A stretch of 32,000 nucleotides of DNA from Calothrix sp. PCC 7716. GTDB lineage: Bacteria; Cyanobacteriota; Cyanobacteriia; Cyanobacteriales; Nostocaceae. The translations under genes and the position numbers were made by a program. Below the pieces are notes generated by a model. That model ran no database searches. It was not told the origin of the DNA and saw only the letters and a list, made by a program, of their open reading frames with translations. The DNA lies in the NCBI GenBank assembly GCA_019977735.1, contig AP025018.1, forward strand, positions 4,746,580 through 4,778,579, read 5' to 3'. How positions within the stretch are numbered: the first letter of the stretch is position 1; every line of letters starts with the position of its first letter. Of the stretch, positions 1 to 32,000 are shown piece after piece.

Positions 1-41
1 AAAGACCCAAAAATCAACTTCTTCATAAAAAAAATCTCGAT

Positions 42-800
42 TTAATAAACATGTGGACGCACTGCAATAACGCGCGCATTAGGAAAAGAACGTCGAATAT
101 TTCTTTGCCTTACAGGTTCGGAACGAGTACTTCTATCAATAAACTCGCCATTACCCACATAAATACCAACGTGAGTAATAGCTCCAGTTGGGAAACTGCC
201 ATAAGTATTGGTCAAACCAATCAAGTCACCAGGTAAGAATTGACTTTGGTCGGTCATCACCTTACCAATATCACTGCCAAAGAACGAGCGCGCCATTAAT
301 TCGCCGTTGTTAGGTTGCTTACCTGCATCCCAAGGTTGATTTGTAACTCCTACACCTTCAACAAAAGCTTCAGCAAGAATGTTACGTACAAAATCAGCAC
401 ATCGCTCTCCTTTACCTGGCTTGAAATCACGACCTATCCACGCGCGCGCACGCTTTAACACTTGAACAGCTACCGGGGATATTGTAGAGGCGCCTTTCTG
501 TGATAATGTACCCACCATCGATTGAAGCTTGTGTACTATTGTTAATGAATCAAGCCAACCTGATGCTGGAGACACCATCATTACAACCAATACAACAGAC
601 GCAATTGCATATTTCCAATTACCAAAACTTTTAGAAGCATCATCTGTACTTAGTTGATTAACAGAAGCTTGAGGTCGATGCTTACTACTTTCACCAATTT
701 CAAAAATTATTCTCATTACGAGGGGGATTTCGCTTACAGCCAATTGCTTGAATGCGCGCGAGTCTCTCAAAATCATTTGTCGGTGCAGGACAGGCTGCAT
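42..800 (-). CDS. NlpC/P60-family cell-wall peptidase with N-terminal membrane anchor
   Basis: 252-aa ORF. Hydrophobic segment YAIASVVLVVMMVSPASGW. Catalytic-type Cys in GERCADFVRNIL and His in GAITHVGIYVGNGEFIDRS, the usual NlpC/P60 (CHAP-like) Cys...His arrangement. The 5' end overlaps ORF 700..999, so the true start may be an internal Met (about 776 or 716). Confidence 0.75.
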   Translation of the reverse strand: MQPVLHRQMILRDSRAFKQLAVSEIPLVMRIIFEIGESSKHRPQASVNQLSTDDASKSFGNWKYAIASVVLVVMMVSPASGWLDSLTIVHKLQSMVGTLSQKGASTISPVAVQVLKRARAWIGRDFKPGKGERCADFVRNILAEAFVEGVGVTNQPWDAGKQPNNGELMARSFFGSDIGKVMTDQSQFLPGDLIGLTNTYGSFPTGAITHVGIYVGNGEFIDRSTRSEPVRQRNIRRSFPNARVIAVRPHVY

Positions 801-999
801 TTATATATTCATCGTTATTATTCTTGGGAGCGGACTTAATGGCATTTGCTTTCGGGCTATTTACAACTTTAGACTTCATCACAACTGCTGCAACATTAGA
901 TAAAACACTCCTTGCATCGTAAAATCTCATATATCCAGGTTGCAGGATATCCAAAATCCAAAGCACAAACAAACACCAAAATATAATCCGGCTCCACAC
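700..999 (-). CDS. hypothetical small protein with N-terminal hydrophobic segment
   Basis: 99-aa ORF. N-terminus IIFWCLFVLWILDIL looks like a signal peptide or TM segment. Lies in register with the surrounding minus-strand operon, 10-nt gap to the upstream gene. Confidence 0.4.
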   Translation of the reverse strand: MWSRIIFWCLFVLWILDILQPGYMRFYDARSVLSNVAAVVMKSKVVNSPKANAIKSAPKNNNDEYINAACPAPTNDFERLARIQAIGCKRNPPRNENNF

Positions 1000-1009
1000 T
1001 ACACTGCTC

Positions 1010-1531
1010 CTAATTCAATCGACGTACTACTGGCACTGCCAGCGAAGGTAAGTTATCGGGAATAACTTTGATTTCTTTACCCGCAGCATAACCAGGTCCT
1101 GTGATTTGCGAATTAAGCACAAACCCAATTGCGCTTAGTACTAAAAACGCAGCAGTACAACATACCCCAACGGGTGAACCAAGAATATTGCCACACCATG
1201 TAACTGGATGCCAGAAATAACGCCACGGGTTTTGGGGGTGAAACCTATGTGCTTTGTAAGTTTCTACGTAATCGATTTCAATTTCTGGTACACGGCGCCT
1301 TGACAAGCGGTCTTGCATACGGACACTTGGCGCCTGTTGAGATATTTGAGAGGGATATATTATTGGTATTGGCTGTGATACAGTTTGCGCTGTTGTATTA
1401 ATAACACCACCATTTTGCTGCATAGCGGAATTTAGCATGTTAGCTAGGTTATTCATTGGAACCAAATTCCCACCTCCTGAAAAATCTACATCTAAATCAC
1501 GAGTTTTATTTGCACCACCACGATTTGACAT
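1010..1531 (-). CDS. hypothetical membrane protein (C-terminal TM)
   Basis: 173-aa ORF. Polar Q/N-rich N-terminal half, hydrophobic segment VGVCCTAAFLVLSAIGFVL near the C-terminus. 9-nt gap to the upstream gene. No family recognised. Confidence 0.55.
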   Translation of the reverse strand: MSNRGGANKTRDLDVDFSGGGNLVPMNNLANMLNSAMQQNGGVINTTAQTVSQPIPIIYPSQISQQAPSVRMQDRLSRRRVPEIEIDYVETYKAHRFHPQNPWRYFWHPVTWCGNILGSPVGVCCTAAFLVLSAIGFVLNSQITGPGYAAGKEIKVIPDNLPSLAVPVVRRLN

Positions 1532-1540
1532 TTAATACTC

Positions 1541-2056
1541 CTAATCGCTCCAAAAATCCTCTGAGTCTATAGCTTTTCTAAATTCATCCGGCGCCAATTT
1601 GTTTGCTGGCACTACAACATTTGTATTTGTATTATGTGGTATTACACCGTCAGCAGTTGGATGCACTAATCGCAGATGGGGATGTTTGATTAAATTTGAT
1701 TGCGGTTCTAACTGCTGACTCGAAGGGTTAATATTCTCAGGTTGTATTTTGAGGTGGTCCTCGGACTCTTGCCCCAAACCAGACTCCACGTAAATACTTG
1801 AGTTGTATCCCTTTAATCCTAGGTACAGAAAGTATATAAAACCTCCAAAAAATACAACACCACATAACAAATGCAAATTCTTTCCCGGTGACGAAATTGC
1901 TACAATTCCTGTTCGACTACTTTCTTGGTAGTTAGTCTCTACTAAATCCTGCTTAAACGAGTAGATAACATTGAAAATGCTTAATCCTAAGCAAGCGACA
2001 CTAACCACAAAACTAATTAAGTAAGTACCCTTTTTACTTCTTGCCTCCATTTCCAT
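1541..2056 (-). CDS. hypothetical two-TM membrane protein
   Basis: 171-aa ORF. TM-like segments YLISFVVSVACLGLSIFNVI and LLCGVVFFGGFIYFLYLGL. Overlaps the upstream gene by 23 nt. Confidence 0.55.
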   Translation of the reverse strand: MEMEARSKKGTYLISFVVSVACLGLSIFNVIYSFKQDLVETNYQESSRTGIVAISSPGKNLHLLCGVVFFGGFIYFLYLGLKGYNSSIYVESGLGQESEDHLKIQPENINPSSQQLEPQSNLIKHPHLRLVHPTADGVIPHNTNTNVVVPANKLAPDEFRKAIDSEDFWSD

Positions 2057-2963
2057 CCCCCTTCGGGTTCATCAGTTTGGCGGGACGGAGACCGACACCG
2101 CCAACTGATTCACCACCTTTGATTACTGGTTTTGGCTCCGGCGCCCCCTTTCGATATAATTCCTTTAACTGCTGGCGCCGTAATTGCTCTAATAATTGCA
2201 ATTCTTCAACCGCTTTGTTGACATCGCTCATTTGTTTGAGGGGGTCAGAATACCCTTGCGCTCTCAATAATTGTTTTTGGCTATCAACGTATGGCTTGTA
2301 TCCACGCTGAATCTCAGTTAGCATTCGCGTAAAATCAACACTCGGTTGACTTTCAAGATTATGCGCCAAATCAATCGCTTCGAGTTTACCCAGCAGTAGA
2401 TACGCAACCGCACTCGCTGGTAATTTTTGCTTTACTTCTGTACCCTCCGTGTCTGTGTAAGACAAATAAAACTCGTTATTTCCGCCTGACACTTCGCCAA
2501 AAGTATCGAGAGTTCGTATCCTCTCAACCTCTAAACCAGGTGTCATATGCATCCGGTAAAATGGATTGCCCTGTTGGTTTCGATTCCGCTCCGATTCGAT
2601 GTAGGCTTTTATGTCTTGCGACCAACGTGCTGCTGCTAACTGGCGCCAACCTACCATTGATGTTCCATCGGGATTATTTAGCCGCAAATTTGTTGAATAG
2701 TCAGTTCGGGATAATTTCTCAAGTACTGCTTCGCGCGCTACTTGTAATTGTTGTTTAGCTGCAACTACTTCAGACCTGTCCTCATTCCCATTCACAGCGT
2801 TTACATCAACTCGTTGCTTCGATGCTGCAATCAACGAAATTGTCACCAAAACTAAGAATCCGCCTATGCCCAACAATAAAAGTAAGGTATTTTGGGGTAT
2901 TGGTTTTCGCTGCTTACTTCCATCAACAACCCCATAACGTTGTTTTGGTGAAGGATGTTGCAT
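2034..2963 (-). CDS. hypothetical single-pass membrane protein with coiled-coil segments
   Basis: 309-aa ORF. One TM (LLLLLGIGGFLVLVTISLIAA), then a soluble domain and a Q/L/E-rich C-terminal helix (VEELQLLEQLRRQQLKEL). 1-nt overlap with the upstream gene. Confidence 0.6.
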   Translation of the reverse strand: MQHPSPKQRYGVVDGSKQRKPIPQNTLLLLLGIGGFLVLVTISLIAASKQRVDVNAVNGNEDRSEVVAAKQQLQVAREAVLEKLSRTDYSTNLRLNNPDGTSMVGWRQLAAARWSQDIKAYIESERNRNQQGNPFYRMHMTPGLEVERIRTLDTFGEVSGGNNEFYLSYTDTEGTEVKQKLPASAVAYLLLGKLEAIDLAHNLESQPSVDFTRMLTEIQRGYKPYVDSQKQLLRAQGYSDPLKQMSDVNKAVEELQLLEQLRRQQLKELYRKGAPEPKPVIKGGESVGGVGLRPAKLMNPKGDGNGGKK

Positions 2964-3184
2964 TAATTAACACCCCCATCTATCACCACAAAACAACGTT
3001 TCGGCTGTTCAATCGTGCGTAATATTGCTACGGTGGCGCCACCTATTAACACTCCAGCTACTATCAACAGCGGGTTGAATGCAAGCGAGGCGCCCACACC
3101 AGTCAACGTTCCTACAACAGAGGAAATAGTTACATTCAAACCTAACCCAGCCAAACCGTTGACTAAAAAATTAATTGCTCCCAT
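2963..3184 (-). CDS. small glycine-rich two-TM protein
   Basis: 73-aa ORF. GxxxG-rich hydrophobic sequence (LVNGLAGLGLNV...LLIVAGVLIGGATVAIL). 14-nt overlap with the upstream gene. Confidence 0.5.
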   Translation of the reverse strand: MGAINFLVNGLAGLGLNVTISSVVGTLTGVGASLAFNPLLIVAGVLIGGATVAILRTIEQPKRCFVVIDGGVN

Positions 3185-3437
3185 CTTTCAGTTCCCTGGT
3201 TTTATTTAATACAACGCCTATACCAATCAAAAAACCAATCATAGTACCCCAAAACCCACCATTTAATATTGGTTCTGGCTTGACTTCTACTTTTTGAGAG
3301 TTTGGCGGTTGGCTAACATACCACCCAACCAAAAGTCCAGAAAAAGTAGAAAATCCCATAATTATCAATGCCGTGAATGAAGCATTTCCTAAACTAGTGA
3401 GCGTGCGGTTACGAAAATCAATCGCGATGGGTATCAT
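3171..3437 (-). CDS. small two-TM protein
   Basis: 88-aa ORF. TM-like FTALIIMGFSTFSGLLVGWYV and FWGTMIGFLIGIGVVL. 4-nt overlap with the upstream gene. Confidence 0.5.
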   Translation of the reverse strand: MIPIAIDFRNRTLTSLGNASFTALIIMGFSTFSGLLVGWYVSQPPNSQKVEVKPEPILNGGFWGTMIGFLIGIGVVLNKTRELKDGSN

Positions 3438-4063
3438 TTTGCTGGTGAGTTCTTCGCTGATGTGGAAGTCCTCGGATTGGATGACTTCAATTGTTTTTGC
3501 GGTTGTGTCGATGCACCCAGAAGCATTGGGTGTTCCCCTTCCCCCCAGTGGATATTCTCGAAAAAATTTACATCAATAGCTTGTAGTGCCCTTTCCTGTG
3601 CGGCGCCGAATTCAGCCGCATTTTTTGTACATCCCGATGACGAACTACCATTAGTTAAGCGGTCGCGTAACACATGTGTGGAAGCTTCAATAATTGACAT
3701 GAAACGTGTATCACCTAATTGATACGCAACTGGCATGTCATTGTACAAAATCCCTACAAAGCTATCTTTAGCTTCATTCTCAGGGTCTTTGCCAAATCTT
3801 TGTTTGATGTAAGAGCGCGCGTCAAATTGGTAGCCATCAGCAGAAACTTTTTTTGCTTGCTGCTGCATCTCTAGTACATGATTAGCAGCGACCAAAAAAG
3901 AAATATTACCTTCAGATGAAACATCTTTGATTTTCTTCAAAAATTCAACAGTTTCTAATGATAACTGGTCGCCATTTACATCCAATGTAAACATTTCACA
4001 TACAGCCAAAATCTCATCACGCTGCACTTTCAACTGTGAAACCACTTGATTGATATGCTGCAT
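3434..4063 (-). CDS. hypothetical soluble protein
   Basis: 209-aa ORF with no TM and no recognised motifs. Second gene of the operon. The start is uncertain: 47-nt overlap with 4017..4412, with an alternative Met about 23 codons in. Confidence 0.55.
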   Translation of the reverse strand: MQHINQVVSQLKVQRDEILAVCEMFTLDVNGDQLSLETVEFLKKIKDVSSEGNISFLVAANHVLEMQQQAKKVSADGYQFDARSYIKQRFGKDPENEAKDSFVGILYNDMPVAYQLGDTRFMSIIEASTHVLRDRLTNGSSSSGCTKNAAEFGAAQERALQAIDVNFFENIHWGEGEHPMLLGASTQPQKQLKSSNPRTSTSAKNSPAK

Positions 4064-4412
4064 CGTTCTCTAATCTCCTCAATACTTCACTTACAACTTC
4101 ATCTTCTTGATCGACATACTTCGGGTCTGATAAAAAATCCCTAAGTGGTATCTTGTGGTAACTTAGTATGTACTCTGGCAATCCTCCTATCGGCAATACG
4201 TTTCTCTCGTATTCTTTAAAAGTCAGTTTACAAAAGCGTGTCGCCACATAAAAATAATCCAATCTCTCAATATCAATTTCTTTAAAATACCCTCCCTTTT
4301 TCATTGGTGGTATAACACCCGCAGGTGAATACCACGCCTTCATCGCTGTTGTTGTCACTCCATAACGCTCAGATAAAGTTGTGCGCGTATGAAGTAGCTT
4401 AATACACACCAT
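4017..4412 (-). CDS. helix-turn-helix DNA-binding protein (MerR/excisionase-like N-terminus), first gene of the operon
   Basis: 131-aa ORF. The N-terminus LHTRTTLSERYGVTTTAMKAWY has the pattern of a short HTH. Preceded by about 840 bp of very AT-rich non-coding DNA. Confidence 0.5.
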   Translation of the reverse strand: MVCIKLLHTRTTLSERYGVTTTAMKAWYSPAGVIPPMKKGGYFKEIDIERLDYFYVATRFCKLTFKEYERNVLPIGGLPEYILSYHKIPLRDFLSDPKYVDQEDEVVSEVLRRLENDAAYQSSGFTVESAA

Positions 4413-5255
4413 TTTTCATGTAAACTCGCACGTGTGTTTATTCATGCTTCAAAAAAAATTATTTAATACGCAGGGTTTCGTTATCTACAACGGAACCACT
4501 AACTACAAGTAAGTTGATTTGAAGCTTCGACTCAATAGTTCGTTTCTTGACTATTCATGAGTATCATACACATCCTTTTCTAGCAATACAATACTTTATG
4601 TATAGTAAATCATGAAAAATTATCTAGTATAAATAATTAACAGAATTACGCTATTAAAGATTTTTTGTATATATGAGTGTAATTTATTAAATATTCGATT
4701 ATATATACAATAATGACGCTTACAATATTGGTTAGCGCCCATATCATCTTGTTTTATTTTTAAAATATTTTTTGAACAATCGGCTCTAAGTCACAATTTC
4801 TAGATACTTTTAAGAGCTTAAGGAAAGAGTACGTAGCACTATGTGTAGCGTTAACATCTAACCGTGCAACCAATCAACGTCTACACGCTCAGTTAGAGGC
4901 ACCTGTAAATAAATGTTGTATAGATTGTTACTTTGTTTTTAATGTAAACATTAGTAATAGCATGGTAAATTAATTAGGTGGAGTAGCAAAAAGCTGCGCG
5001 AGCAAAAAGTTTCTGCACTTTGCTTTGCTCGCGTAGTCAAAGATATAAATTAGATACACTTAAAAATATTTATGTAAAAAATAATACTATTATAGGCACG
5101 TACTTATATTGCTCAACCTACCAACGACTTATCTATGGCTTACTGCTTTTTATTTTGTATTTATCTATTACACATAGGCACCTTATAAAACTTGTATATT
5201 ATTCAATCCTGAATTATAACGGATTTACTAACTATACTTAGTATTTATTACCTGC

Positions 5256-5642
5256 ATGGTAGAACCGTTTTCATTACCCCCTGGATATAAGATTCAAAAA
5301 TTCTCACAAACTTTTTTAGATTCTTTGTTATATGCTACTACCCGTGGTATGGCAGAAATATATATTGCTGAATACCGTGGTGAAGAAGTGGGTCGAATTG
5401 TTTTTGTTAATACAGGCGCCAAGTATTTAATCTATGTATTAAATGTTAGTCCTGAACATAGACGTAAGGGAATTGGCTCATGTCTTGTTCAAACAGTTGT
5501 ACGTCTTGCAGACAAACCAATTTATTTATCTACGTATAGTGCTAAAAACTTTTATACTCGTCTTGGTTTCACGGTAGAACACGAACAAGAAATATTTGGG
5601 TTTGTTTACGGTTATGTAATGGTGCTGCGACCACCTGCTTAA
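5256..5642 (+). CDS. GNAT-family N-acetyltransferase
   Basis: 128-aa ORF. Acetyl-CoA binding motif A: VSPEHRRKGIGSCLVQ (R/Q-x-x-G-x-G/A), followed by FYTRLGF typical of the GNAT C-terminus. Confidence 0.8.
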   Translation: MVEPFSLPPGYKIQKFSQTFLDSLLYATTRGMAEIYIAEYRGEEVGRIVFVNTGAKYLIYVLNVSPEHRRKGIGSCLVQTVVRLADKPIYLSTYSAKNFYTRLGFTVEHEQEIFGFVYGYVMVLRPPA

Positions 5643-6008
5643 ACAAACTTTTAGGCACCTACCGATGCGTTAACTTCTGTTTTACTCTTCATTATTTCAG
5701 TTTACCCTCGCAAATAGCAAAGGCTGAAACTAGCGGGGGGGTAATAACTGATAATCATTTTTATAGATGTATATTATCAAGCAATTAACTTGCTTCTAAG
5801 ATAATTTACTTGGGTCTAAATTATTCATACGATACCGAAGTCGGCGCCTGTAGTAGCGTGTTGTTAGATTAATCGGGCGCCTAATACAATATTATTTTCT
5901 TGGTCTTTTTCTTTTGCCATGCACGTTTTTCACTTTTGCCTTGTTGCACTAGTCCGTTAGAACCACTGCCAGAAATCCAGTTATAATACAGATGTCAATC
6001 CCGATTCT

Positions 6009-6983
6009 GTGTCTACTATGGCATTCTCCCAGCCAGACCGATATATTAGCTTACTAACAGATTTTGGCTTCAAGCGTGTTTTTGGGTCGGAGCCAAATAA
6101 ACGCTTGCTTATAGATTTTCTCAACACGCTGCTACCGGACTATCATCAAATTCGGGATGTGACGTTTAAAAATTTAGAGAACCTGGGCGGTACAATATTG
6201 GATCGTAAAGCAATTTTTGATGTGTACTGTGAGGCAGAAAATGGAGACCGCTTTATTGTAGAACTCCAGAAAGTCAAGCAAAACTTTTTCAAAGACCGTA
6301 GTGTGTACTATGCGAGTTTTCCGATTCAAGAGCAAGCAGAGAAGGGAGAATGGAACTATGAATTAGCTCCTGTTTACCTGGTAGGATTGCTTGATTTTAT
6401 CTTTGATGACCATAAAAATGACCCGACATTTTTGCATGTTGTCGAGCTAAAAGACCAGGAATGTCGCGTTTTTTATGACAAGTTAAAGTTTATCTACATC
6501 GAGTTACCGAAGTTTAGCAAGACATTAGAGCAGTTGGAGACACATTTTGACAAGTGGCTATTTCTGTTTCGCCACCTACCCGAGTTATATGAACCACCAC
6601 CACCGTTGCAGGAGGAAGTGTTTGAGGAAGTGTTTGAGATAGCGGAGATTGCTAACTTTTCTCGTGATGAATACCGTAGTTATCAAGCGAGTTTAAAGGT
6701 TTACCGGGATTGGTATGCCATAGAAATGACTGGTCGGCAGGAAGCAAGACAGCAAGGACTAGAAGAAGGACGAGAAGAAGGACGCTCAGAAGGACGAGAA
6801 GAGGAAGCTAGAGCGCTTGTGAGGCGCCTTTTAACCCGCCGACTAAAACAAGAATTGTCCGAAGAGATACATAATCGTCTTTCCACGCTGCCGCTCTCAG
6901 TACTCGAAGACCTTAGCGAGGCTTTATTAGACTTCGCAACCTTGGCTGATTTAAACGATTGGTTGGCAAAACTCCATTCTTGA
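6009..6983 (+). CDS. Rpn-family (YhgA-like) PD-(D/E)XK recombination-promoting nuclease / putative transposase with DUF4351-like tail
   Basis: 324-aa ORF. N-terminal ISLLTDFGFKRVFG signature. PD-(D/E)XK-like D...E-x-K in FDVYCEAENGDRFIVELQK. C-terminal charged repeat EGREEGRSEGREEE and an alpha-helical tail, as in the many cyanobacterial copies of this family. Confidence 0.8.
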   Translation: MSTMAFSQPDRYISLLTDFGFKRVFGSEPNKRLLIDFLNTLLPDYHQIRDVTFKNLENLGGTILDRKAIFDVYCEAENGDRFIVELQKVKQNFFKDRSVYYASFPIQEQAEKGEWNYELAPVYLVGLLDFIFDDHKNDPTFLHVVELKDQECRVFYDKLKFIYIELPKFSKTLEQLETHFDKWLFLFRHLPELYEPPPPLQEEVFEEVFEIAEIANFSRDEYRSYQASLKVYRDWYAIEMTGRQEARQQGLEEGREEGRSEGREEEARALVRRLLTRRLKQELSEEIHNRLSTLPLSVLEDLSEALLDFATLADLNDWLAKLHS

Positions 6984-7356
6984 CGTTATTATTAGACACC
7001 TAGGAGTGCCAGATGCTAAAGTTGACAAAACATATTTTGACGTTTAACGCATTCGCTGCATACTCAAAATATACTGGCTCTGGGTTGAGCAACTTAATAT
7101 TGAATGCTCCTTTCGTTTTTCAAGCGGCTTGTTCCGCACCTAAAAATCCTTGTACCATAAGCTTTGTAGCTAATTAAGACAGTGTTTGTTCCGCACTTGC
7201 TCCCACTACCTTTGATAACTTTGTCCTCTACTTCAGCAAGCCTAGTCGTAGCGTGAATACTCAGTTTTTTAAATTTATATATTTATACGCTGACTTTTGA
7301 AGGAAGTGCCACAGTCAGAATAAGCGTATTTTAATTCACCTGATGTTGTGTATTGT

Positions 7357-10560: not shown

Positions 10561-10567
10561 AAATAAC

Positions 10568-25456: not shown

Positions 25457-25496
25457 AAAAAAAACCCTTTTTTCAAACATGCTGAGAAAAAGGGTT
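25457..25496 (-). terminator. Rho-independent terminator on the minus strand
   Basis: AACCCTTTTT (25463-25472) pairs perfectly with AAAAAGGGTT (25487-25496), 14-nt loop. On the minus strand the hairpin is followed by a run of six U (A run 25457-25462 on +). No annotated ORF lies upstream of it. Confidence 0.55.
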
Positions 25497-26305
25497 ACTG
25501 TTGTCTATTTATACATAACCAAATTCAAATTATAAAGCTAAGAGAGAAAATCCCTCTCACCCTTTAGCAAGAGGGGTTGTATGAGGGTAATGTTGGAATT
25601 TGTCATCTACCAAGCAAATTATAACCGCTCAACTCTTAGTATTAATGACTGCTGCAACGGGAGCATCCACTTTTGGAAGAAACATAAATTATATGGCGCC
25701 GGAGACCTTACTATATGGTTGGTCTAAAAAAGTGTATCTGCCGAAAGTGGATGCTCCCATCACTACGAAATAAATTGGGCAATATCAATGTCTGCCAATC
25801 TCAAAATGGGCATTTCAAAAAACACTTTCAAAACTCTTGTACTGGTATGCTTCACTTGTTTGGACTCTGGCGGTTGAATAATTACTCTATCAGAAAAACC
25901 CCCAAATTGCTCTAGGGTCTGTGAGGGTGAAGTTTTTTAACCAAGCAACCCTTTTTAATTTTGATTGCTTGGTTACACAGGGTAATATCCACTAACTTGT
26001 ATTATAATAGTCCTAGATAAAGTTACCGTAGCGGACTAAAGGAATACATCAGCATAACATAGGCAATTCTTTCAATCTAGTAATTTTTTACCACTTTTAC
26101 TCCTAGTAGCTTTTTACCTCGCCAGATTAAGATTGGAAGTTTTATCCTCCGATTTGGCTTATATTCACATATTCTTCATCTTCTCTATAGAGAATAGTCA
26201 ATTCTCACCATAATTTAACCTTTCTCATCGGGTATCCTAAGTTTAAGAAATGTTGCTCGCCTTTGCAACCCTTCTTGCTTCTCGATATGTTGACGGACAA
26301 ATGGA

Positions 26306-28474
26306 ATGTTAAACACGCTACTCATCGCCTCCAACAGCGTGATCTCGCTGTGCTATTTTATCATTGCTTTTTTAATTTTGCTTCCATACCTGCGGGGGGA
26401 GCAAAAAACAAGTCTTGTGCTAGCCACCATTTGTGTCTTTTTTAGTTGCGCCCTTGGACACGGCGGGCATGTCTTGATGATGGCACTCTCTAATAGTGCT
26501 TATTCTCCACTAATACTAAAGGGACAGCTCATCGTTGACTCTATGACGGCTTGCATTGCTATCACCTATATTGCCCTGCGACGGTATTTTTCTTTTTTAG
26601 TTGATGGGCCACTGCTGTTGAACCAAACACAAGAAAGATTGGAAAAAGCTAATTTGGAATTGCAGAACTTGAATACCAAACTCGAAGCGGCGGTTTTGCA
26701 AAGAACCCTTGAACTATCCAAAGCCAACGAAGAGTTAGCAGCTAAAGCGGCGGAGCGCAAAGACATGATCGCGGCACTTAAACGCAGCAACGCTTTTTTG
26801 CAAGCCCAGCAGGAAGCAGGTGTCGATGGCATATTAGTGGTCGATGAAAATAATCAAGTGGTCTTTTACAACCAAAAGTTTTATCAAACTTGGCAAATCC
26901 CTGAAGAACTTGTACAGCAGAGGGATGACCGTAAAATTCTGGAACTGGTGATTACTCGACCTCTCAACGGGCAAGAGTTTATCGAGAAAGTAGATTATCT
27001 ATATAGACATAAAGAAATGGTCAGCAGGGACGAAATTATCCTTAAAGATGGACGCACTTTAGATCGCTACACCACCCCTATTTATTCGGGAAACATTTAC
27101 TACGGACGAATTTGGTTTTTTCGCGACATCAGTGAATTTAAAATTATGGAGGAGGAGCTAAGACAGGCGCAAGATTTTCTGAAACTGATTATCAACCTCA
27201 TGCCTCAAGCGCTGGCGTGGAAAGATCGAAATTCAGTTTATTTAGGTTGTAATCAAAAGTTAGCGGCCATTGCCGGATTAACTAAACCTGAAGAAATTAT
27301 TGGTAAAACTGACTACGATTTGGCTTGGAAAAAGGAGGAGGCTGATTTCTTTCGCCAGTGCGATAGACAAGTTATGGACAGCAATCAAGCTAAGTTGCAT
27401 ATAATAGAGTCTAAACAACAAGCGGGCGGCAAACAAGCGTGGCTCGATACTAGTAAAATTCCCTTGCACGATAAGATAGGACAAGTTATCGGTATTTTAG
27501 CAGTCATTGATGATATTACTGAGCGTAAGGCCGCTTCCGACGCGCTAATTGCTTCCGAGGCTTTATTGAAACAGAAAACAGTGGAACTAGAAGCAACTTT
27601 ATCGGAATTGAAGCAAGCTCAAATTCATTTAATTCAAAGCGAGAAGATGTTGGCACTGGGACAACTGGTCGCCGGAATTGCTCACGAGATTAATAATCCA
27701 GTTAATTTTATTTATGGCAATCTGCCTCATATTAATGAATATGTGCAGGATTTAATTAATTTATTACAAGCTTATCAGCAAGAGCATTTAAACCCGTCTC
27801 AGAACTTACTTTTGCAAGTAGCAGAAGTGGACTGCGAGTATTTACTAGAGGATTTACCCAAGCTCCTAAGTTCCATGAAAATGGGAGCAGATCGAATTCG
27901 AGAAATTGTTTTGTCGCTGCGTAACTTTTCCCGTCTTGATGAAGCAGACATGAAAGAAGTCGATATTCACGAGGGACTAGATTCGACGCTGTTGATTATT
28001 CAAAATAGATTGAAAAATAAGCTAGGGACTAAAATTAAAGTTCTGAAAAACTATAGTAATTTACCACCCGTAGAGTGCTATGCGGGGCAGTTAAATCAAG
28101 TGTTTATGAACGTGCTTTGTAACGCCATTGACGCTTTAGAAAGCGAAATTGACAACGCTAGTCCTACTATTGAAATCAGTACCTATTTACAAGAGGAATT
28201 ACAAGCAGCAGACAAGCAGGCAGAAAATAAACCACCACAAAAGAAACGAGTAATTATCACCATTACCGATAATGGTGCTGGTATTGCCGAAGATACCCAA
28301 GCTCAGATTTTCAACCCCTTCTTTACCACTAAAGAGGTAGGTAAGGGTACAGGTCTTGGACTCTCTATTAGTTATCAAATCGTGGTGAAGAAACACAAAG
28401 GTGTTTTTACCTTTAGCTCTAAACCGGGAAGGACTGAATTTTATATTGAAATACCGCTAGTACAAATGAAATAG
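26306..28474 (+). CDS. membrane-anchored PAS sensor histidine kinase
   Basis: 722 aa. N-terminal multi-TM region (ISLCYFIIAFLILLPYL, LVLATICVFFSCALGHG, ...), coiled coil, PAS blocks. H-box LVAGIAHEINNPVNFIYGNL. N-box VFMNVLCNAIDAL, G1 DNGAGI, G2 GKGTGLGLSISYQIV. Confidence 0.9.
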   Translation: MLNTLLIASNSVISLCYFIIAFLILLPYLRGEQKTSLVLATICVFFSCALGHGGHVLMMALSNSAYSPLILKGQLIVDSMTACIAITYIALRRYFSFLVDGPLLLNQTQERLEKANLELQNLNTKLEAAVLQRTLELSKANEELAAKAAERKDMIAALKRSNAFLQAQQEAGVDGILVVDENNQVVFYNQKFYQTWQIPEELVQQRDDRKILELVITRPLNGQEFIEKVDYLYRHKEMVSRDEIILKDGRTLDRYTTPIYSGNIYYGRIWFFRDISEFKIMEEELRQAQDFLKLIINLMPQALAWKDRNSVYLGCNQKLAAIAGLTKPEEIIGKTDYDLAWKKEEADFFRQCDRQVMDSNQAKLHIIESKQQAGGKQAWLDTSKIPLHDKIGQVIGILAVIDDITERKAASDALIASEALLKQKTVELEATLSELKQAQIHLIQSEKMLALGQLVAGIAHEINNPVNFIYGNLPHINEYVQDLINLLQAYQQEHLNPSQNLLLQVAEVDCEYLLEDLPKLLSSMKMGADRIREIVLSLRNFSRLDEADMKEVDIHEGLDSTLLIIQNRLKNKLGTKIKVLKNYSNLPPVECYAGQLNQVFMNVLCNAIDALESEIDNASPTIEISTYLQEELQAADKQAENKPPQKKRVIITITDNGAGIAEDTQAQIFNPFFTTKEVGKGTGLGLSISYQIVVKKHKGVFTFSSKPGRTEFYIEIPLVQMK

Positions 28475-28640
28475 AAAAGTTTTTTAAAATTGTTGTATAA
28501 AAATGGTTCTTTCGTACATAGCGTGCTAAATTTTAATTAAAATCTATCAATTATGCTTTATTTACAAGGCTTACAGGCACTTATATTTTCAATTTAAGCA
28601 AGGAATACTGTCAATACTGCTCGGTTAAGAATTTTCCTTA

Positions 28641-28883
28641 TTGTTTTTGGGATGTAGAGACGCGTTCACGGAGTACGCATTGATTTCTAAAATTAGAAAC
28701 TATTCTGATGGCATAATTTGCAAAATGCCTGCGATTGCTTTGACTGCGCTTGCTGATAATGACTCAAGAGATTTAGCAATAGACCAAGGATTTGATACTA
28801 TTGTCTTTAAGCCATGTGATTTTGATTTACTAATTGAAACTGTCAAGATAATTATTATAAATTACAACCTGCCACGTATTTAG
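28641..28883 (+). pseudogene. response-regulator receiver domain, C-terminal fragment only
   Basis: 80-aa ORF beginning at TTG. ...YALISKIRN...MPAIALTALADNDSRDLAIDQGFDTIVFKPCDFDLLIETV corresponds to alpha3-alpha5 of a REC domain. The phospho-acceptor Asp region and the N-terminal half are missing. Confidence 0.65.
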
Positions 28884-29049
28884 TTAGTCGTGACTCACTC
28901 CCGAAAAGGTGTGGTGCCATGATAACTCAACAAGTTTAAGCGTTTATGGCGCCGCAGTTCCAAAGATGTTTAACTATTTAATTAATTCTCCCTCGTGAGT
29001 TATGTAATTACTTTTCGTCTTAATTCTTGGTATACTTCTATATCTTTCC

Positions 29050-29133
29050 GTAAGAATTCAGGTAACCAGTGGGTGCCTCCTCTCCAAGACTTTAAGCGAG
29101 TGACACCCGAAGGGTGTCACGGCGCCATAAAAA
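29050..29133. repeat. IS left terminal inverted repeat (contains hairpin GTGACACCC-GAA-GGGTGTCAC)
   Basis: GTAAGAATTCAGGTAACCAGTGGGTGCCTCC...GTGACACCCGAAGGGTGTCACGGCGCCATAAAAA matches the reverse complement of 30801-30884 at 76 of 84 positions. Confidence 0.85.
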
Positions 29134-29249
29134 CGCTCATAAAAAAGTATAAACAGAACTTAAGAGAAAAGATAACAATTACTTTAAGGCGCACGTTTTA
29201 ACAAAACGTATATAGGTACAGAAATTTTACCCATAATCAAGGTCGTAAT

Positions 29250-30716
29250 TTAAGGAATTAAAGATGGTGCTTGTATTTTTGGGTTGACGATTGCTTGTAG
29301 AGCTTGCTCAAAAAATTCAATCACGGAACGCCCTTGGCGCCGACAAGTTTGTACAATCGTCAATAAATTAGCAGTATGTTGGAACCGCTCCATAGAACGA
29401 GAACCTCCACTAACTTTTCTTTTTGTTACAGCTAAACGTAACGTTCGTTCCGCTTGATTATTATCAGGTGGTATCTCTGGATGTTCTAAAAAGTACCACC
29501 ATTGATGTGCTTTGTCTCGCAAACAACGTAAAAGCTTGCCCGCTTCGCCTCCCGCTGTATCAATCCATTCATTTATGGAAGATTCGACTTTTACTTTAAA
29601 CTCAGATGCCCAACTAAAGAAATCCAAAATATCTTGTTCTTGTTGGAACTCCGCGTAGTGTCTAAACGCTTCATCGATTAACTTGACAAAAGCTTCCCCT
29701 ATTTTTAGGTTGTTTAAGCCAGGAAGTTTCATTAATTTTTTGAAGTGGCGCCGTAAATGCGCTAGACATTTTTGTTGGGCTTTTACATCATAGCCGTTAT
29801 AAACACTATAATCGTCAGAACTAAGCACACCATTATAATTTGGTCCAAGAATCATTTCTAGCTCCGCGCGCGAGCGAGTGTCTGCCGCATGGAACAAGGC
29901 AAAATCAGTATTTGCAAAAATCCACAACCATTCTTTTACACCTTTAACAATCCAAGGTGTTTCATCAGAATGTATGTTTGGTTGATTATCTTGTATCCAG
30001 TCTTTAAGGTCTGAGACGCTTTTACTGATTGCTGCATCTATTCTTTCATTTGTAGTAACAAGGGTTCCAACCCCAATTTCAATCTTCCCTAACTCCCACA
30101 AAAGCTCTTGTTGCTTTTCATAGGACAAATGTCCATAATTATTCATCCACCCCAACAAAGCCTGTAAATTTATTCCTAAGTCTTGACCCGGAACCATATT
30201 AATAGACCAGTCTGCAGTTTGCTCGGTACCGCAATTCCCGCATAAACATGTATGGCGATGATACTCAACTATTTCAATTGGGCGCTCCACCAACTGCGCT
30301 ACTTGCTGTGTTTCAATTTTTATTGGCTCTGTTACAAAACACGCATTGCCGCAGCAGCTACAAACTTCTGGGCGTAAAATTTCCAAACGGTCAACTCTGC
30401 CAAAACCCTTACGGGTTTTACCCACGTGACCTGGTTGACCTCCTGGTTTACGTTTTGGCGCCTCTGGGTCTGAGTTGGTATTATCTTCTTTCTTTTCTGG
30501 TTTTTTAAGGATATCTCCAGATGGAGGTTTTGATGAGGTTTTGCTATCTAGGCTTTGACTTACTTTTAGCCGCTTTACTTCGGCTTCAAGCTCTGTAATT
30601 ACTTTTTTTAATTCTTGAATTGACTCGCCCTGCTCAATTACCATATCCACCAGTTGTTCCTGTGGCAACTGGAAGAGGTTTTCGCGACTTAGTTTGAGAG
30701 GCTCGTTTTTATCCAT
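29250..30716 (-). CDS. IS66-family transposase (TnpC-type DDE)
   Basis: 488 aa. N-terminal leucine-zipper-like helix (ELEAEVKRLKV), Cys cluster CSCCGNAC...HRHTCLCGNCG. DDE-type blocks SDETPW, LSSDDYSVYN, CLAHLRRHF, NNQAERTLR, typical of IS66 transposases. Confidence 0.9.
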   Translation of the reverse strand: MDKNEPLKLSRENLFQLPQEQLVDMVIEQGESIQELKKVITELEAEVKRLKVSQSLDSKTSSKPPSGDILKKPEKKEDNTNSDPEAPKRKPGGQPGHVGKTRKGFGRVDRLEILRPEVCSCCGNACFVTEPIKIETQQVAQLVERPIEIVEYHRHTCLCGNCGTEQTADWSINMVPGQDLGINLQALLGWMNNYGHLSYEKQQELLWELGKIEIGVGTLVTTNERIDAAISKSVSDLKDWIQDNQPNIHSDETPWIVKGVKEWLWIFANTDFALFHAADTRSRAELEMILGPNYNGVLSSDDYSVYNGYDVKAQQKCLAHLRRHFKKLMKLPGLNNLKIGEAFVKLIDEAFRHYAEFQQEQDILDFFSWASEFKVKVESSINEWIDTAGGEAGKLLRCLRDKAHQWWYFLEHPEIPPDNNQAERTLRLAVTKRKVSGGSRSMERFQHTANLLTIVQTCRRQGRSVIEFFEQALQAIVNPKIQAPSLIP

Positions 30717-30800
30717 AATGAAAGATAATCTGCCCTCATGTTACCTTTGTCAAGACCCACCAGACCAACCGCAGCGTTTTTTACGTACTTGTTTATTTAA

Positions 30801-30884
30801 TTTTTATGGCACCGTGACACCCTTCGGGTGTCACTCGCTTAAAGTTTTGTGGAGGAGGTGCCCACTGGTCACCTGAATCCTTAC
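30801..30884. repeat. IS right terminal inverted repeat
   Basis: Reverse complement of 29050-29133 with 8 mismatches. Ends ...CCTGAATCCTTAC. Confidence 0.85.
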
Positions 30885-31002
30885 GATACAATCGTTTATC
30901 TGACTGAAAGTACCTCAACATGTCATTAATTTCGCAATAACTCACAAAAAGCGTCTCAATTAATGGAATAATGGTTTAGATATTAATTAAGCTTGGTCGA
31001 TT

Positions 31003-32000
31003 ATGCGAGACTTTAGCCAACTTTTAAATGAACGCTCTCAAACAATTGTTTCGCAATGGGTAAAGGCAGTTGCTCAAAGCCGAGAGATTACAAGTACAGA
31101 TGGAATGTCTCGCTCTGCCATTCGTAATCATATCGATCAAGTTCTGGCGGCACTGGTATCTGTTTTGGCACAAGATCAACAAAGTGACGTACCTCTAGCT
31201 ATCACAGCCAGCTTGACACATGGAAAATGGCGGGCAGATCAAGGATTTGATCCGGCAGAAATTGCTCAAGAGTATCGTTTACTGCGATTAACAATTCAAG
31301 CCGCAATTCAGCCAGATTTAATGCAAGGAACAGCACAGGAAGCCGTGAGAGCGATGACCATGATTGATGAAGTAATCGATACGGCGATTGCTTATTGCTT
31401 TCAAAGTTACGTTGCCGAACGCATTGAAGAACTCGGTCAAATTCAGGAACAGTTAAATATTACTATCAAAGAACTGACTCGCTTAGTCAAAGCCAGCCAA
31501 GACAATCTTTCGATGCTTGCCCATGAGGTCAAGTCACCTTTATCTGCCATTATAGGCTACGCTGAACTGTTTTTGCGACAACAACGGATGCAGCAACGAG
31601 ACACGATATTAAACTATGAAGCGATCAAGCGCATTATTCGTGCCGGACAAGGGTTACTACACCTGATCAACGATACTTTAGAACTCTCCCGTGCCAGTGA
31701 TGGAGCGATGAAAATTAATCCGGTAAAGATTTCAGTTTCAGAGTTATTGGATAGCATAATCTCAATTATGCAACCCTTGGCGCTCGACCGCAGTTTAGAA
31801 CTTATATTACAGATTGACGATGCACCGGAAACAGTGGTGAGCGATTCGATTAAGCTCCAACAAGTTCTTATTAATCTAATCGCAAATTCAATTCAATATA
31901 CTCAAGTCGGCAGCATCAGTATCACCTGTTGGTGTCCCACACCCGATCTATGGGCAGTTGCAGTGGCAGATACTGGTGTAGGAATTGCACCAGAGGAGCA
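31003..32000 (+). CDS. sensor histidine kinase, 5'-partial view (runs off the window)
   Basis: Not in the ORF track because it is open at the window end. My translation from ATG 31003: MRDFSQLLNERSQTIVSQWVKAV... (RsbRD-N-like sensor helix bundle), H-box LSMLAHEVKSPLSAIIGYAELF, N-box LINLIANSIQYT, G1 ADTGVGI at the window edge. Confidence 0.8.
   Translation, partial: MRDFSQLLNERSQTIVSQWVKAVAQSREITSTDGMSRSAIRNHIDQVLAALVSVLAQDQQSDVPLAITASLTHGKWRADQGFDPAEIAQEYRLLRLTIQAAIQPDLMQGTAQEAVRAMTMIDEVIDTAIAYCFQSYVAERIEELGQIQEQLNITIKELTRLVKASQDNLSMLAHEVKSPLSAIIGYAELFLRQQRMQQRDTILNYEAIKRIIRAGQGLLHLINDTLELSRASDGAMKINPVKISVSELLDSIISIMQPLALDRSLELILQIDDAPETVVSDSIKLQQVLINLIANSIQYTQVGSISITCWCPTPDLWAVAVADTGVGIAPEE

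What the first reader, a model, noticed from the sequence alone, without database searches (positions are those of the whole stretch)
1..32000. GGCGCC is a highly iterated palindrome here (about 41 copies against about 2 expected), with a sharply patchy distribution
By-eye count of GGCGCC start positions:
- Backbone left of the element (27): 489, 1294, 1329, 1590, 2140, 2174, 2642, 3035, 3089, 3602, 5415, 5843, 5876, 6823, 7566, 7627, 7699, 8001, 8165, 8300, 8975, 9464, 9839, 10700, 11771, 12030, 12653.
- Inside the 6.7-kb element (1): 19393.
- Backbone right of the element (5): 19579, 19806, 20002, 20616, 20684.
- Kinase/IS region (8): 22530, 24777, 25695, 28948, 29121, 29336, 29747, 30457.

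For roughly 40 percent GC DNA, 0.2^6 x 32,000 is about 2.

Sites fall in all three codon phases. Examples are GGC GCC = GA at 489, G GCG CC at 1329, GG CGC C at 1294. They also occur in intergenic DNA, and the flanking bases vary. The signal is therefore at the DNA level, not a codon artefact.

The canonical cyanobacterial HIP1 (GCGATCGC) was not seen at all. Alternate HIPs paired with cognate orphan methyltransferases have been reported in cyanobacteria that lack HIP1, and this looks like such a case.

GCGCGC also recurs (72, 288, 442, 444, 754, 2743, 3815, 12151, 25066, 29876). Densities are about 1 per 430 bp in the plasmid-like backbone, 1 in 6.7 kb in the element, and 3 in about 8 kb of kinase genes. 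This partitions the window into at least three compositional histories.
Basis: partly seen in the sequence, partly recalled or inferred. Interest (0 to 1): 0.7.

Follow-up and report, generated by a model that had tools for sequence, protein, structure and literature searches.

The report
Known GGCGCC iterated palindrome of Calothrix
The window comes from the chromosome of the cyanobacterium Calothrix sp. PCC 7716, and its 41 scattered GGCGCC sites are the lineage's own replacement for the usual cyanobacterial HIP1 palindrome, already published for the sister strain PCC 7103, so the finding is real but not new.

Summary
There are 41 GGCGCC at the listed coordinates, against 1.6-2.8 expected under Markov order 0-2 and 2.1±1.4 in dinucleotide shuffles. 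It is the top hexamer under every model up to order 4. HIP1 (GCGATCGC) is absent.

The sites are independent hexamers. Their flanks are unrelated, and they split 13/10/10 across codon phases with 8 intergenic.

The window is chromosomal DNA of Calothrix sp. PCC 7716. Elhai (2015) described GGCGCC as the alternative HIP of the sister strain PCC 7103 (O/E 30, 1535 per Mb). Homologous loci of PCC 7103 and of a metagenomic relative carry about 41 sites per 20 kb, many at the same aligned positions. In contrast, 79 loci from other cyanobacteria have HIP1 and avoid GGCGCC.

The patchiness is real:
- The 6.7-kb element is a proven insertion, because both relatives have the empty site.
- Resident genes encode 70% of all GGCGCC-compatible peptide contexts as GGCGCC.
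- The element does so in 8% of contexts and the kinase genes in 10%.

Sites that differ between relatives differ almost only by transitions at the central CpG. This fits m5C on the inner cytosine.

The cognate methyltransferase could not be searched.

The parts
1..12874 (.). Resident chromosomal block with 27 GGCGCC sites (2.1 per kb, O/E about 34). Positions: 489, 1294, 1329, 1590, 2140, 2174, 2642, 3035, 3089, 3602, 5415, 5843, 5876, 6823, 7566, 7627, 7699, 8001, 8165, 8300, 8975, 9464, 9839, 10700, 11771, 12030, 12653. GGCC is 1 against 20 expected and GATC is 3 against 46 expected.
   Evidence: Homologous to Calothrix PCC 7103 (L083) and a metagenomic relative (L084) at 82-91% nucleotide identity, with most sites shared.
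12868..12874 (+). Left copy of the 7-bp core AGTTTGG at the element junction.
   Evidence: Junction alignment with the empty sites in L083 and L084.
12875..19573 (+). Inserted mobile element of about 6.7 kb. It carries three tyrosine recombinases (12980-14065, 14062-15519, 15512-17347), a DUF6262 protein (17295-18158) and a DnaB-family helicase (18136-19464). GC is 33%. It holds a single GGCGCC (19393). No terminal inverted repeats were found.
   Evidence: Pfam and NCBIfam. Absent from the homologous locus in L083 and L084, where window 12874 abuts 19571-19574. No terminal inverted repeat. It forms its own 6715-bp unitig in a short-read assembly of the strain. GGCGCC saturation is 1/13.
19574..19580 (+). 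Right copy of the core AGTTTGG. Its last two bases are the GG of the GGCGCC at 19579, so the element inserted into a HIP site (empty site CAGTTTGG|CGCCAGTG).
19574..20800 (+). Resident DNA: the C-terminal part of a gene split by the element. The N-terminal part is 12642-12874, and the intact gene is 482 aa in L084. It carries 5 GGCGCC (19579, 19806, 20002, 20616, 20684).
20801..29048 (.). Histidine-kinase region (21184-22890, 22871-24361, 26306-28474) plus spacers. It has only 4 GGCGCC (22530, 24777, 25695, 28948), or 0.5 per kb. GATC is 10 against 29 expected, which is much weaker avoidance than in the resident block.
   Evidence: The kinase genes realise 1/10 GGCGCC-compatible contexts.
29049..30885 (-). 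IS66-family insertion sequence, 1837 bp with 85-nt terminal inverted repeats. It has host-level GGCGCC density, with 4 sites (29121, 29336, 29747, 30457). The site in the left repeat is GGCGCC, while the matching position in the right repeat reads GGCACC.
   Evidence: Pfam DDE_Tnp_IS66. Inverted repeats. Sequence read directly. Collapsed multi-copy contig L088. Saturation 3/4.
30886..32000 (+). Start of another histidine-kinase gene (from about 31013) that runs off the window. It has 0 GGCGCC. GATC is 7 against 4.3 expected, so it is not avoided here.

Best explanation
Shown. GGCGCC is the lineage-specific highly iterated palindrome (alternative HIP) of the Calothrix PCC 7103 / PCC 7716 clade. 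In this clade it replaces HIP1 (GCGATCGC). Copies are not spread by transposition. Each site arises in place by point substitution in DNA that has resided long in the lineage, in all reading frames and between genes. In resident genes about 70% of the peptide contexts that can be spelled GGCGCC are spelled that way. Once made, sites are kept: they are shared between strains far more often than other hexamers. DNA that arrived recently has not yet acquired the motif. The clearest case is the 6.7-kb tyrosine-recombinase element. The kinase genes probably belong in the same class. This explains the patchy map.

Inferred. The motif is methylated to GG(m5C)GCC by GrCGyC-type cytosine methyltransferases that have no active cognate nuclease, as predicted for PCC 7103. 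Accumulation and retention would then result from methylation-linked biased mismatch repair, as in Elhai's ratchet model. Selection for a function of the methylated motif may also contribute.
For: Statistics. 41 observed against 1.6-2.8 expected, and 0 of 100 shuffles reach 41.

Independence. Flanks are unrelated, codon phases are 13/10/10 and 8 sites are intergenic.

Organism. The window protein at 7357-8646 is 100% identical to CAL7716_042070 of Calothrix sp. PCC 7716, on an 11,423,121-bp contig. The genome is 38.4% GC.

Published precedent. In PCC 7103, GGCGCC has O/E 30.0 at 1535 per Mb and is the most frequent hexamer. HIP1 O/E is 2.9. Two GrCGyC methyltransferases are predicted. GGCGTC, GACGCC and GACGTC have O/E 0.30, 0.28 and 0.05. 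The window shows the same pattern at 1281 sites per Mb.

Clade specificity.
- PCC 7103 locus L083: 41 sites in 19.8 kb.
- Metagenomic relative L084: 42 sites in 19.7 kb.
- Calothrix FI2-JRJ7 locus L004: 14 sites in 12.3 kb.
- None of these contains HIP1.
- 79 other cyanobacterial loci (1.39 Mb): GGCGCC 27 against 225 expected, HIP1 1469 against 15 expected.

Retention. GGCGCC is conserved between strains in 10/10, 10/14, 10/11 and 12/13 comparisons. All hexamers are conserved at 44-69%, and other all-GC hexamers at about 50%.

Substitutional origin and saturation. The fraction of compatible contexts spelled GGCGCC is 28/40 in resident genes, 3/4 in IS66, 1/13 in the element and 1/10 in the kinases. 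Relatives show 19/28 and 28/39.

Recent insertion. Both relatives have the empty site.

Inner-C methylation signature. 8 of 9 single-substitution variants are GGTGCC or GGCACC. GGTGCC+GGCACC is the only one-off neighbour clearly above expectation, at 11 against 5-6.6.
Against: No methyltransferase lies in the window. The PCC 7716 chromosome and plasmids could not be reached. So the enzyme, its orphan status and the methylated base are all inferred.

The conservation and variant counts are small. They come from three related sequences over about 4-6 kb, and the two directions of each comparison are not independent.

Higher conservation fits selection as well as biased repair.

GGTGCC and GGCACC are not depleted, which a strong T:G-to-C:G repair would predict.

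The 722-aa kinase has its closest full-length match (66%) in another GGCGCC-rich genome, and it lacks sites there too. 'Recent arrival' is therefore not proven for the kinase genes.

Spacing between sites is close to random (CV about 1), not the even spacing a saturating ratchet might give.
Confidence: 0.85

Rival explanations
1. The motif is kept by selection for a cellular function of its own. Candidates proposed for HIP1 are nucleoid or chromosome organisation, and a self-DNA tag that promotes uptake or recombination. Under this view it is not a by-product of methyl-directed repair. The methyltransferase could still be part of the system.
For: Sites are conserved well above control hexamers. 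Xu et al. 2018 interpreted the same result for HIP1 as evidence of selection. Resident genes hold about twice as many GGCGCC-compatible peptide contexts per 100 aa as the element or the kinases (1.17 against 0.47-0.59), so even protein sequence appears bent towards the motif. HIP1 raises transformation efficiency in a homology- and methylation-dependent way, and has been proposed as a phylum-wide uptake tag (abstracts and text).
Against: Nothing in the window points to a specific function. Sites are not concentrated between genes (8 of 41 in 26% non-coding DNA). They show no regular spacing (CV about 1). Biased repair would also produce conservation. A 6-bp palindrome has no orientation, unlike Chi or classical uptake sequences.
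Confidence: 0.3
2. The enrichment is a coding artefact: frequent Gly-Ala or Ala-Pro peptides, or a codon-pair preference.
For: 33 of 41 sites are in ORFs. Phase 0 (Gly-Ala) is the largest single class, with 13 sites.
Against: The three phases are nearly equal (13/10/10), and 8 sites are intergenic. 12 of 18 Gly-Ala dipeptides in resident genes use one codon pair of the 16 possible, whereas the element uses it in 1/8 and the kinases in 0/5 within the same genome. Other cyanobacteria with similar GC content avoid the hexamer.
Confidence: 0.01
3. The hexamers are the conserved core of a longer dispersed repeat (REP-, MITE- or IS-end-like) that has multiplied.
For: One site (29121) lies in the terminal inverted repeat of the IS66 element.
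Against: The ±12-nt flanks of the 41 sites share nothing. The only trend is a mild pyrimidine preference at position -1. The commonest octamer occurs 8 times. Sites sit at aligned positions inside genes homologous to those of the relatives.
Confidence: 0.01
4. The patchy distribution is only chance plus local GC content, not different histories.
For: With a simple GC-scaled expectation, the element-versus-backbone contrast is only p=0.07-0.11.
Against: The empty site in two relatives proves the element is an insertion. The saturation test is independent of GC and amino-acid content and gives p=1.8e-4 and p=8.6e-4. GATC avoidance differs in parallel: 3/46 in the resident block, 10/29 in the kinase region and 7/4.3 at the right end.
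Confidence: 0.05

Closest known systems
GGCGCC alternative HIP of Calothrix sp. PCC 7103 (and Calothrix D253), Elhai 2015, Life 5:921 (PMC4390886)
   Same: It is the same hexamer at the same scale: O/E 26 and 1281 per Mb here, against 30 and 1535 per Mb there. HIP1 and CGATCG are absent in both. The side pattern is the same: GACGTC strongly and GGCGTC/GACGCC moderately under-represented, with GATC O/E about 0.2. Individual sites sit at the same aligned positions as PCC 7103 sites in the homologous locus.
   Different: The strain is different. The PCC 7716 genome was published in 2021, and no paper in the searched library links it to GGCGCC. This work adds three things. First, the sites are conserved between strains. 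Second, variants are central-CpG transitions, which bears on the inner-C methylation that Elhai's model requires and lists as unknown. Third, a codon-level saturation index separates resident from recently acquired DNA.
HIP1 (GCGATCGC) of most cyanobacteria, with the orphan methyltransferases DmtA (GATC) and DmtC (CGATCG)
   Same: It is a short GC-rich palindrome, hugely over-represented, dispersed in all frames and between genes, conserved between homologous regions, and a methyltransferase target.
   Different: The sequence and length differ (6 against 8 nt). HIP1 itself is absent here. The predicted enzymes are GrCGyC m5C methyltransferases, not GATC or CGATCG enzymes.
GCsGC in Cyanothece PCC 7822 and rCCGGy in Oscillatoria PCC 10802 (the other alternative HIPs in Elhai 2015)
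   Same: The scenario is the same: HIP1 is low, a different GC-rich palindrome is highly iterated, and a methyltransferase covering that palindrome has been gained.
   Different: The motifs and lineages are different.
Dcm/Vsr very-short-patch repair in E. coli (from general knowledge, not tested here)
   Same: A cytosine-methylated site is protected against deamination loss by T:G-directed repair. This raises the frequency of the methylated word relative to its deamination product.
   Different: The E. coli effect is modest, well below 2-fold. Here the effect is about 20-30-fold, and the deamination products GGTGCC/GGCACC are not depleted. No Vsr-like gene could be looked for.

Membership tests
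Alternative HIP (GGCGCC type) sensu Elhai 2015 | Short GC-rich palindrome with extreme over-representation, about 1000-2000 copies per Mb | tested here: met
   41 in 32 kb, or 1281 per Mb. O/E is 26 (order 0), 17 (order 1) and 14.5 (order 2). It is the top hexamer even at order 4.
Alternative HIP (GGCGCC type) sensu Elhai 2015 | Occurs in a genome where HIP1 is low or absent | tested here: met
   GCGATCGC 0 and CGATCG 0 in the window, in L083, in L084 and in L004. Only the window and these loci were tested, not the whole genome.
Alternative HIP (GGCGCC type) sensu Elhai 2015 | Independent dispersed copies, not part of a longer repeat, in all frames and in non-coding DNA | tested here: met
   Unrelated flanks. 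Phases 13/10/10 plus 8 intergenic.
Alternative HIP (GGCGCC type) sensu Elhai 2015 | Belongs to the Calothrix PCC 7103 lineage and shares its sites | tested here: met
   The source is Calothrix sp. PCC 7716. The PCC 7103 locus is 82-91% identical, with 10 of 14 window sites shared. 79 loci from other cyanobacteria lack the enrichment.
Alternative HIP (GGCGCC type) sensu Elhai 2015 | The other GrCGyC words are under-represented (GGCGTC, GACGCC, GACGTC) | tested here: met
   GACGTC 0 against 2.5-4 expected. GGCGTC+GACGCC 2 against about 5. Counts are small.
Alternative HIP (GGCGCC type) sensu Elhai 2015 | The genome encodes methyltransferase(s) whose specificity covers the motif, without an active cognate nuclease | not testable with these tools
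   No methyltransferase in the window. The PCC 7716 chromosome is not in the gene-position index, and its plasmids are not in the plasmid collection. It is predicted for PCC 7103 only.
Alternative HIP (GGCGCC type) sensu Elhai 2015 | Motif methylated at the inner cytosine (required by the biased-repair model) | tested here: inconclusive
   Indirect only. 8 of 9 single-substitution variants between relatives are central CpG transitions. No methylation data.
HIP1 | The iterated word is GCGATCGC | tested here: not met
   0 copies. Only 4 one-mismatch variants in 32 kb.
Dispersed repeat element (REP/MITE) | Copies share sequence well beyond the core | tested here: not met
   The flank table shows no shared sequence.
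DNA uptake sequence / Chi-type oriented signal | Asymmetric word with strand or orientation bias, and in uptake sequences a frequent position in terminators | tested here: not met
   The word is a perfect palindrome and is not enriched between genes. A methylation-dependent uptake or recombination role like that proposed for HIP1 was not testable.
Tyrosine-recombinase transposable element (RIT 'recombinase in trio' / Tn554-like), for the 6.7-kb insert only | Adjacent tyrosine-recombinase genes; RIT: long terminal inverted repeats; Tn554-like: site-specific insertion with a short core and no inverted repeats | tested here: inconclusive
   Three adjacent, overlapping Phage_integrase genes. No terminal inverted repeats. 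A 7-bp core AGTTTGG sits at both junctions. The definitions of the two families are from memory. Subfamily placement of the three recombinases was not tested.

The most novel reading that the evidence does not exclude
Three side results are not in the literature I could search, and the evidence does not exclude them.
1. Comparative evidence that the inner C of GGCGCC is the methylated base and that sites are actively retained. Variants are almost only GGTGCC or GGCACC, yet sites evolve several-fold more slowly than their surroundings. This would supply the unverified premise of Elhai's methyl-directed repair ratchet.
2. A codon-level 'HIP saturation' index (about 70% in resident genes against about 10%) works as a residence-time clock. 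It flags the histidine-kinase cluster, not only the mobile element, as late-arriving DNA.
3. A tyrosine-recombinase/DnaB element whose 7-bp crossover core overlaps a HIP site. This raises the possibility that HIP sites serve as landing pads for mobile elements.
Probability: 0.3. Interest if true: 0.4.

Novelty: already known. Interest (0 to 1): 0.22.

Why it matters
This is a clean, independent re-discovery of a published phenomenon from raw sequence. It extends that phenomenon from PCC 7103 to PCC 7716, to a metagenomic relative and to the MAG Calothrix sp. FI2-JRJ7, so the trait belongs to a clade and not to one strain. Three practical points follow.

- The clade is the best natural experiment on how a HIP is replaced, because HIP1 was lost and GGCGCC gained.
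- The motif's saturation level separates resident from recently acquired DNA at gene resolution.
- The central-CpG variant signature gives a cheap, testable prediction, GG(m5C)GCC, for a model whose key premise is still unmeasured.

None of this changes the current picture of HIPs.

Tried and rejected
**Searches that did not reach the rest of the genome**
- Plasmid collection, 'near' mode. The left 12.9 kb gave no match. The rest gave only short IS or kinase fragments in Nostocales plasmids. There is therefore no support for a plasmid origin.
- The single genome-contig scan was run with the 722-aa kinase. It did give 80 useful comparison loci.
- I tried to sample more of the PCC 7716 genome through its multi-copy IS66 transposase and through the element's recombinase. 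Only short collapsed Logan contigs came back, because the NCBI chromosome is not in the gene-position index.
- The PCC 7716 plasmid AP025019 is not in the plasmid collection.

**Methyltransferase**
- I could not search for it. I have no reliable query sequence for a GrCGyC enzyme. A generic C5-methyltransferase query would not surface one strain's genes among the many homologues, so I judged it not worth a 13-CPU-hour search.

**Tests that gave nothing**
- The DRR312005 run accession is in no paper.
- Rfam and tRNA scans of the window found nothing.
- Spacing of sites shows no regularity (CV about 1).
- Depletion of the deamination neighbours GGTGCC/GGCACC, expected under strong VSP-like repair, was not seen: 11 against 5-6.6.

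**Explanations rejected**
- Codon or dipeptide artefact.
- Longer-repeat family.
- GC content alone as the cause of the patchiness (see rivals).


Full report
**Observation**

The window is 38.3% GC. Expected counts are as follows.

| Markov order | Expected count |
|---|---|
| 0 | 1.58 |
| 1 | 2.39 |
| 2 | 2.82 |
| 3 | 8.6 |
| 4 (maximal) | 21.6 |

- One hundred dinucleotide-preserving shuffles give 2.13 ± 1.42, with a maximum of 6.
- GGCGCC has the highest z-score of all hexamers under orders 1, 3 and 4.
- The canonical HIP1 octamer GCGATCGC and its core CGATCG are both absent.
They are 2733, 25056 and 29866.

**The sites are independent hexamers at the DNA level**

- The 12-nt flanks of the 41 sites share nothing. 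The commonest octamer, TGGCGCCA, occurs 8 times. The only trend is a mild preference for a pyrimidine at position -1.
- Against ORF-based gene calls, the sites fall 13/10/10 in the three codon phases. Eight are intergenic, in a window that is about 26% non-coding.
- A codon artefact and a longer repeat family are both excluded.

**Where the window comes from**

- The 429-aa protein at 7357-8646 is 100% identical to CAL7716_042070 of Calothrix sp. PCC 7716. It lies on a contig of 11,423,121 bp.
- That genome is one chromosome plus nine plasmids, 12.37 Mb in total and 38.4% GC, under accessions AP025018-AP025027 (Hirose and Katayama 2021, PMC8638574).
- The window is therefore chromosomal. 'Plasmid-like backbone' is not a replicon assignment, although some of its genes do have plasmid-borne relatives.
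- The same DNA appears as short Logan contigs of runs DRR312005 and DRR312007.

**It is a known phenomenon**

Elhai (2015, PMC4390886) examined 97 cyanobacteria. [quoted passage not shown] His findings and supplementary values for PCC 7103 are:

- GC 38.5%, and GGCGCC at O/E 30.0 and 1535 per Mb, the most frequent hexamer of that genome.
- HIP1 O/E 2.9 and GATC O/E 0.16.
- GGCGTC, GACGCC and GACGTC at O/E 0.30, 0.28 and 0.05.
- A lost CGATCG methyltransferase, and two predicted GrCGyC methyltransferases.

The window reproduces this signature:

- GGCGCC at 1281 per Mb, with O/E 26.
- GATC 23 against 78-112 expected.
- GACGTC 0.
- GGCGTC+GACGCC 2 against about 5 expected.

**Comparative check**

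The locus homologous to the window in PCC 7103 (L083, GCA_000331305.1) has 41 GGCGCC in 19.8 kb. A metagenomic relative (L084) has 42 in 19.7 kb. Neither has HIP1. I scanned genome representatives with the 722-aa kinase and obtained 80 cyanobacterial loci.

- Only one of the 80 is GGCGCC-rich and HIP1-free. It is L004, from the MAG Calothrix sp. FI2-JRJ7, with 14 sites against 0.6 expected.
- The other 79 loci total 1.39 Mb and all contain HIP1, at 1469 against 15 expected.
- Those 79 loci avoid GGCGCC, at 27 against 225 expected.

The trait is therefore a sharp, clade-specific inversion of the general cyanobacterial pattern.

**Patchiness**

- In L083 and L084 the sequence matching window 12874 runs straight on into that matching 19571-19574.
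- The junctions show a 7-bp core, AGTTTGG, on both sides. The empty site reads CAGTTTGG|CGCCAGTG, so the element landed inside a GGCGCC site and split a gene that is 482 aa in L084.
- The element spans 12875-19573 and is 33% GC. It carries three tyrosine recombinases, a DUF6262 protein and a DnaB-family helicase.
- It has no terminal inverted repeats.
- It assembles as its own 6715-bp unitig from short reads. This suggests several copies, or an insertion that is polymorphic in the culture.
- It holds one GGCGCC.

*The IS66 element looks resident.* It spans 29049-30885 with 85-nt inverted repeats and has host-level density, with 4 sites.

*Density alone is an incomplete test.* By length, the element and the kinase region are significantly poorer than the left block (p=2e-4 and p=1e-3). 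A naive GC-scaled expectation weakens this to p=0.07-0.11 for the element and p=0.01 for the kinases.

*A saturation index settles it.* I built a test that is independent of base and amino-acid composition. It counts the peptide contexts that can be spelled GGCGCC by synonymous choice: Gly-Ala, x-Ala-Pro and [WRG]-Arg-[LPHQR]. It then asks how many actually are.

| Gene class | Contexts spelled GGCGCC | Fisher test against resident genes |
|---|---|---|
| Resident genes | 28/40 (70%) | - |
| IS66 transposase | 3/4 | p = 1.0 |
| Inserted element | 1/13 | p = 1.8e-4 |
| Kinase genes | 1/10 | p = 8.6e-4 |

- Relatives show the same resident level, at 19/28 and 28/39.
- GATC avoidance runs in parallel. 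It is 3/46 in the resident block, 2/20 in the element, 10/29 in the kinase region and 7/4.3 in the right-end kinase.

Three histories are therefore supported. Whether the kinases are recent arrivals is less certain. The 722-aa kinase has its closest full-length match (66% identity) in the GGCGCC-rich FI2-JRJ7 genome, and it is site-free there as well.

**How the motif behaves over time**

In alignments of the window with L083 and L084 (76-95% identity), GGCGCC sites are retained much more often than other words.

| Comparison | GGCGCC conserved | All hexamers conserved |
|---|---|---|
| Window to L084 | 10/10 | 50% |
| Window to L083 | 10/14 | 44% |
| L083 to window | 10/11 | 45% |
| L083 to L084 | 12/13 | 69% |

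- Other all-GC hexamers are conserved at roughly 50%. Other GC-rich hexamers centred on CpG are conserved at 36-50%.
- Where a site differs, the other sequence almost always reads GGTGCC or GGCACC. That is 8 of 9 single-substitution variants, and two further variants include the same change.
- The IS66 element offers an internal example. Its left inverted repeat reads GGCGCC, and the matching position in the right repeat reads GGCACC.
- GGTGCC+GGCACC is also the only one-off neighbour clearly above expectation in the window, at 11 against 5-6.6.

Transitions at the central CpG are the footprint of deamination of 5-methylcytosine at the inner C. Elhai's model requires methylation at that position and lists it as undetermined. 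This is suggestive, not proof. The counts are small, the two directions of each comparison overlap, and a three-taxon set cannot polarise most changes.

**Mechanism**

*Shown.* Sites arise in place by substitution, saturate resident DNA, are retained between strains, and are lacking in a demonstrably recent insertion.

*Inferred.* The motif is methylated as GG(m5C)GCC by GrCGyC-type methyltransferases with no active nuclease, as predicted for PCC 7103. Methylation-linked biased repair (Elhai's ratchet) then builds up and holds the sites. Selection on the methylated motif may also contribute, for nucleoid organisation (Xu et al. 2018) or for uptake or recombination of self DNA.

My data do not separate repair bias from selection. 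Conservation fits both. Resident genes have about twice the density of compatible peptide contexts, which shows that the pressure also reaches protein sequence. Spacing is near random (CV about 1), apart from an absence of pairs closer than 33 bp.

**What could not be done**

There is no methyltransferase in the window, and the rest of the PCC 7716 genome was out of reach. The enzyme, its orphan status and the methylation itself remain untested here.

**Verdict**

The phenomenon is already published for the sister strain, and many of the window's sites match PCC 7103 sites position for position. It is therefore already known.

Interest is low (0.22). The modest additions are:
- the clade-level distribution;
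- the conservation of sites and the central-CpG variant signature;
- the saturation index;
- the element inserted into a HIP site.

Noticed in passing
window 12868-19580: A mobile element of about 6.7 kb (three tyrosine recombinases, DUF6262, DnaB helicase; no terminal inverted repeats) is inserted with a 7-bp core AGTTTGG at both junctions. The target was a GGCGCC site (empty site CAGTTTGG|CGCCAGTG in PCC 7103 and in a metagenomic relative). The element forms its own 6715-bp unitig in the short-read assembly, which suggests several copies or an insertion that is polymorphic in the culture.
   Followed up: partly
window 12642-12874 and 19571-20796: The two halves of one gene, split by the element. 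The gene is intact and 482 aa in L084 (5242-6690). It has no Pfam family and a coiled-coil C-terminal part.
   Followed up: partly
window 71-77, 288-293, 441-449, 754-760, 2732-2738, 3815-3821, 12151-12157, 12235-12240, 20376-20381, 25056-25062, 29865-29872: Alternating (CG)3-4 runs form a second enriched word. GCGCGC occurs 10 times and CGCGCG 12 times, against about 1.6-2.7 expected each. They are also enriched in L083, L084 and L004, but are below expectation in 79 other cyanobacterial loci (249 against 449). The cause is unknown. A second methylated word is one possibility.
   Followed up: partly
whole window: There is very strong avoidance of many short palindromes. GGCC is 6 against 43-56 expected, and GATC is 23 against 78-112. 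Twenty of the 64 palindromic hexamers are absent, including TTCGAA and AGATCT (each about 7-11 expected) and TGCGCA. This suggests a heavy load of restriction systems, consistent with the GATC and CGATCG nucleases listed for PCC 7103.
   Followed up: no
window 21317, 28731, 31384: Three of the four one-mismatch HIP1 variants in the window lie in the kinase part (the fourth, GCGGTCGC, is at 3659). All three are the same variant, GCGATTGC or its complement GCAATCGC, which is HIP1 with a CpG transition. They may be decayed HIP1 sites in DNA that came from a HIP1-bearing donor. The counts are too small to be sure (3 against about 1.4 expected).
   Followed up: partly
window 29049-30885: An IS66-family element of 1837 bp with 85-nt terminal inverted repeats that are 91% complementary. 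Its left repeat contains GGCGCC (29121), and the matching position in the right repeat reads GGCACC. A 26-nt stretch of the right repeat (30860-30885) matches L004 (Calothrix FI2-JRJ7) 11533-11558 exactly, so a related IS is present there.
   Followed up: partly
window 1-12900; L083, L084, L004: No two GGCGCC sites are closer than 33 bp in 120 inter-site gaps, where about 7.7 such gaps are expected under random placement. Some gaps are shared between related loci and so are not independent. Otherwise spacing is close to exponential (CV about 1). In the window, three pairs sit 33-35 bp apart.
   Followed up: partly
window 31013-32000: A further histidine-kinase gene runs off the right end. It has 7 GATC in about 1 kb, so GATC is not avoided there, and it has no GGCGCC. 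It is the most foreign-looking kilobase of the window.
   Followed up: no
window 24400-26300: About 1.9 kb without any ORF of 100 aa or more, between two kinase genes. It has no Rfam or tRNA hit. It contains two GGCGCC sites (24777, 25695).
   Followed up: no
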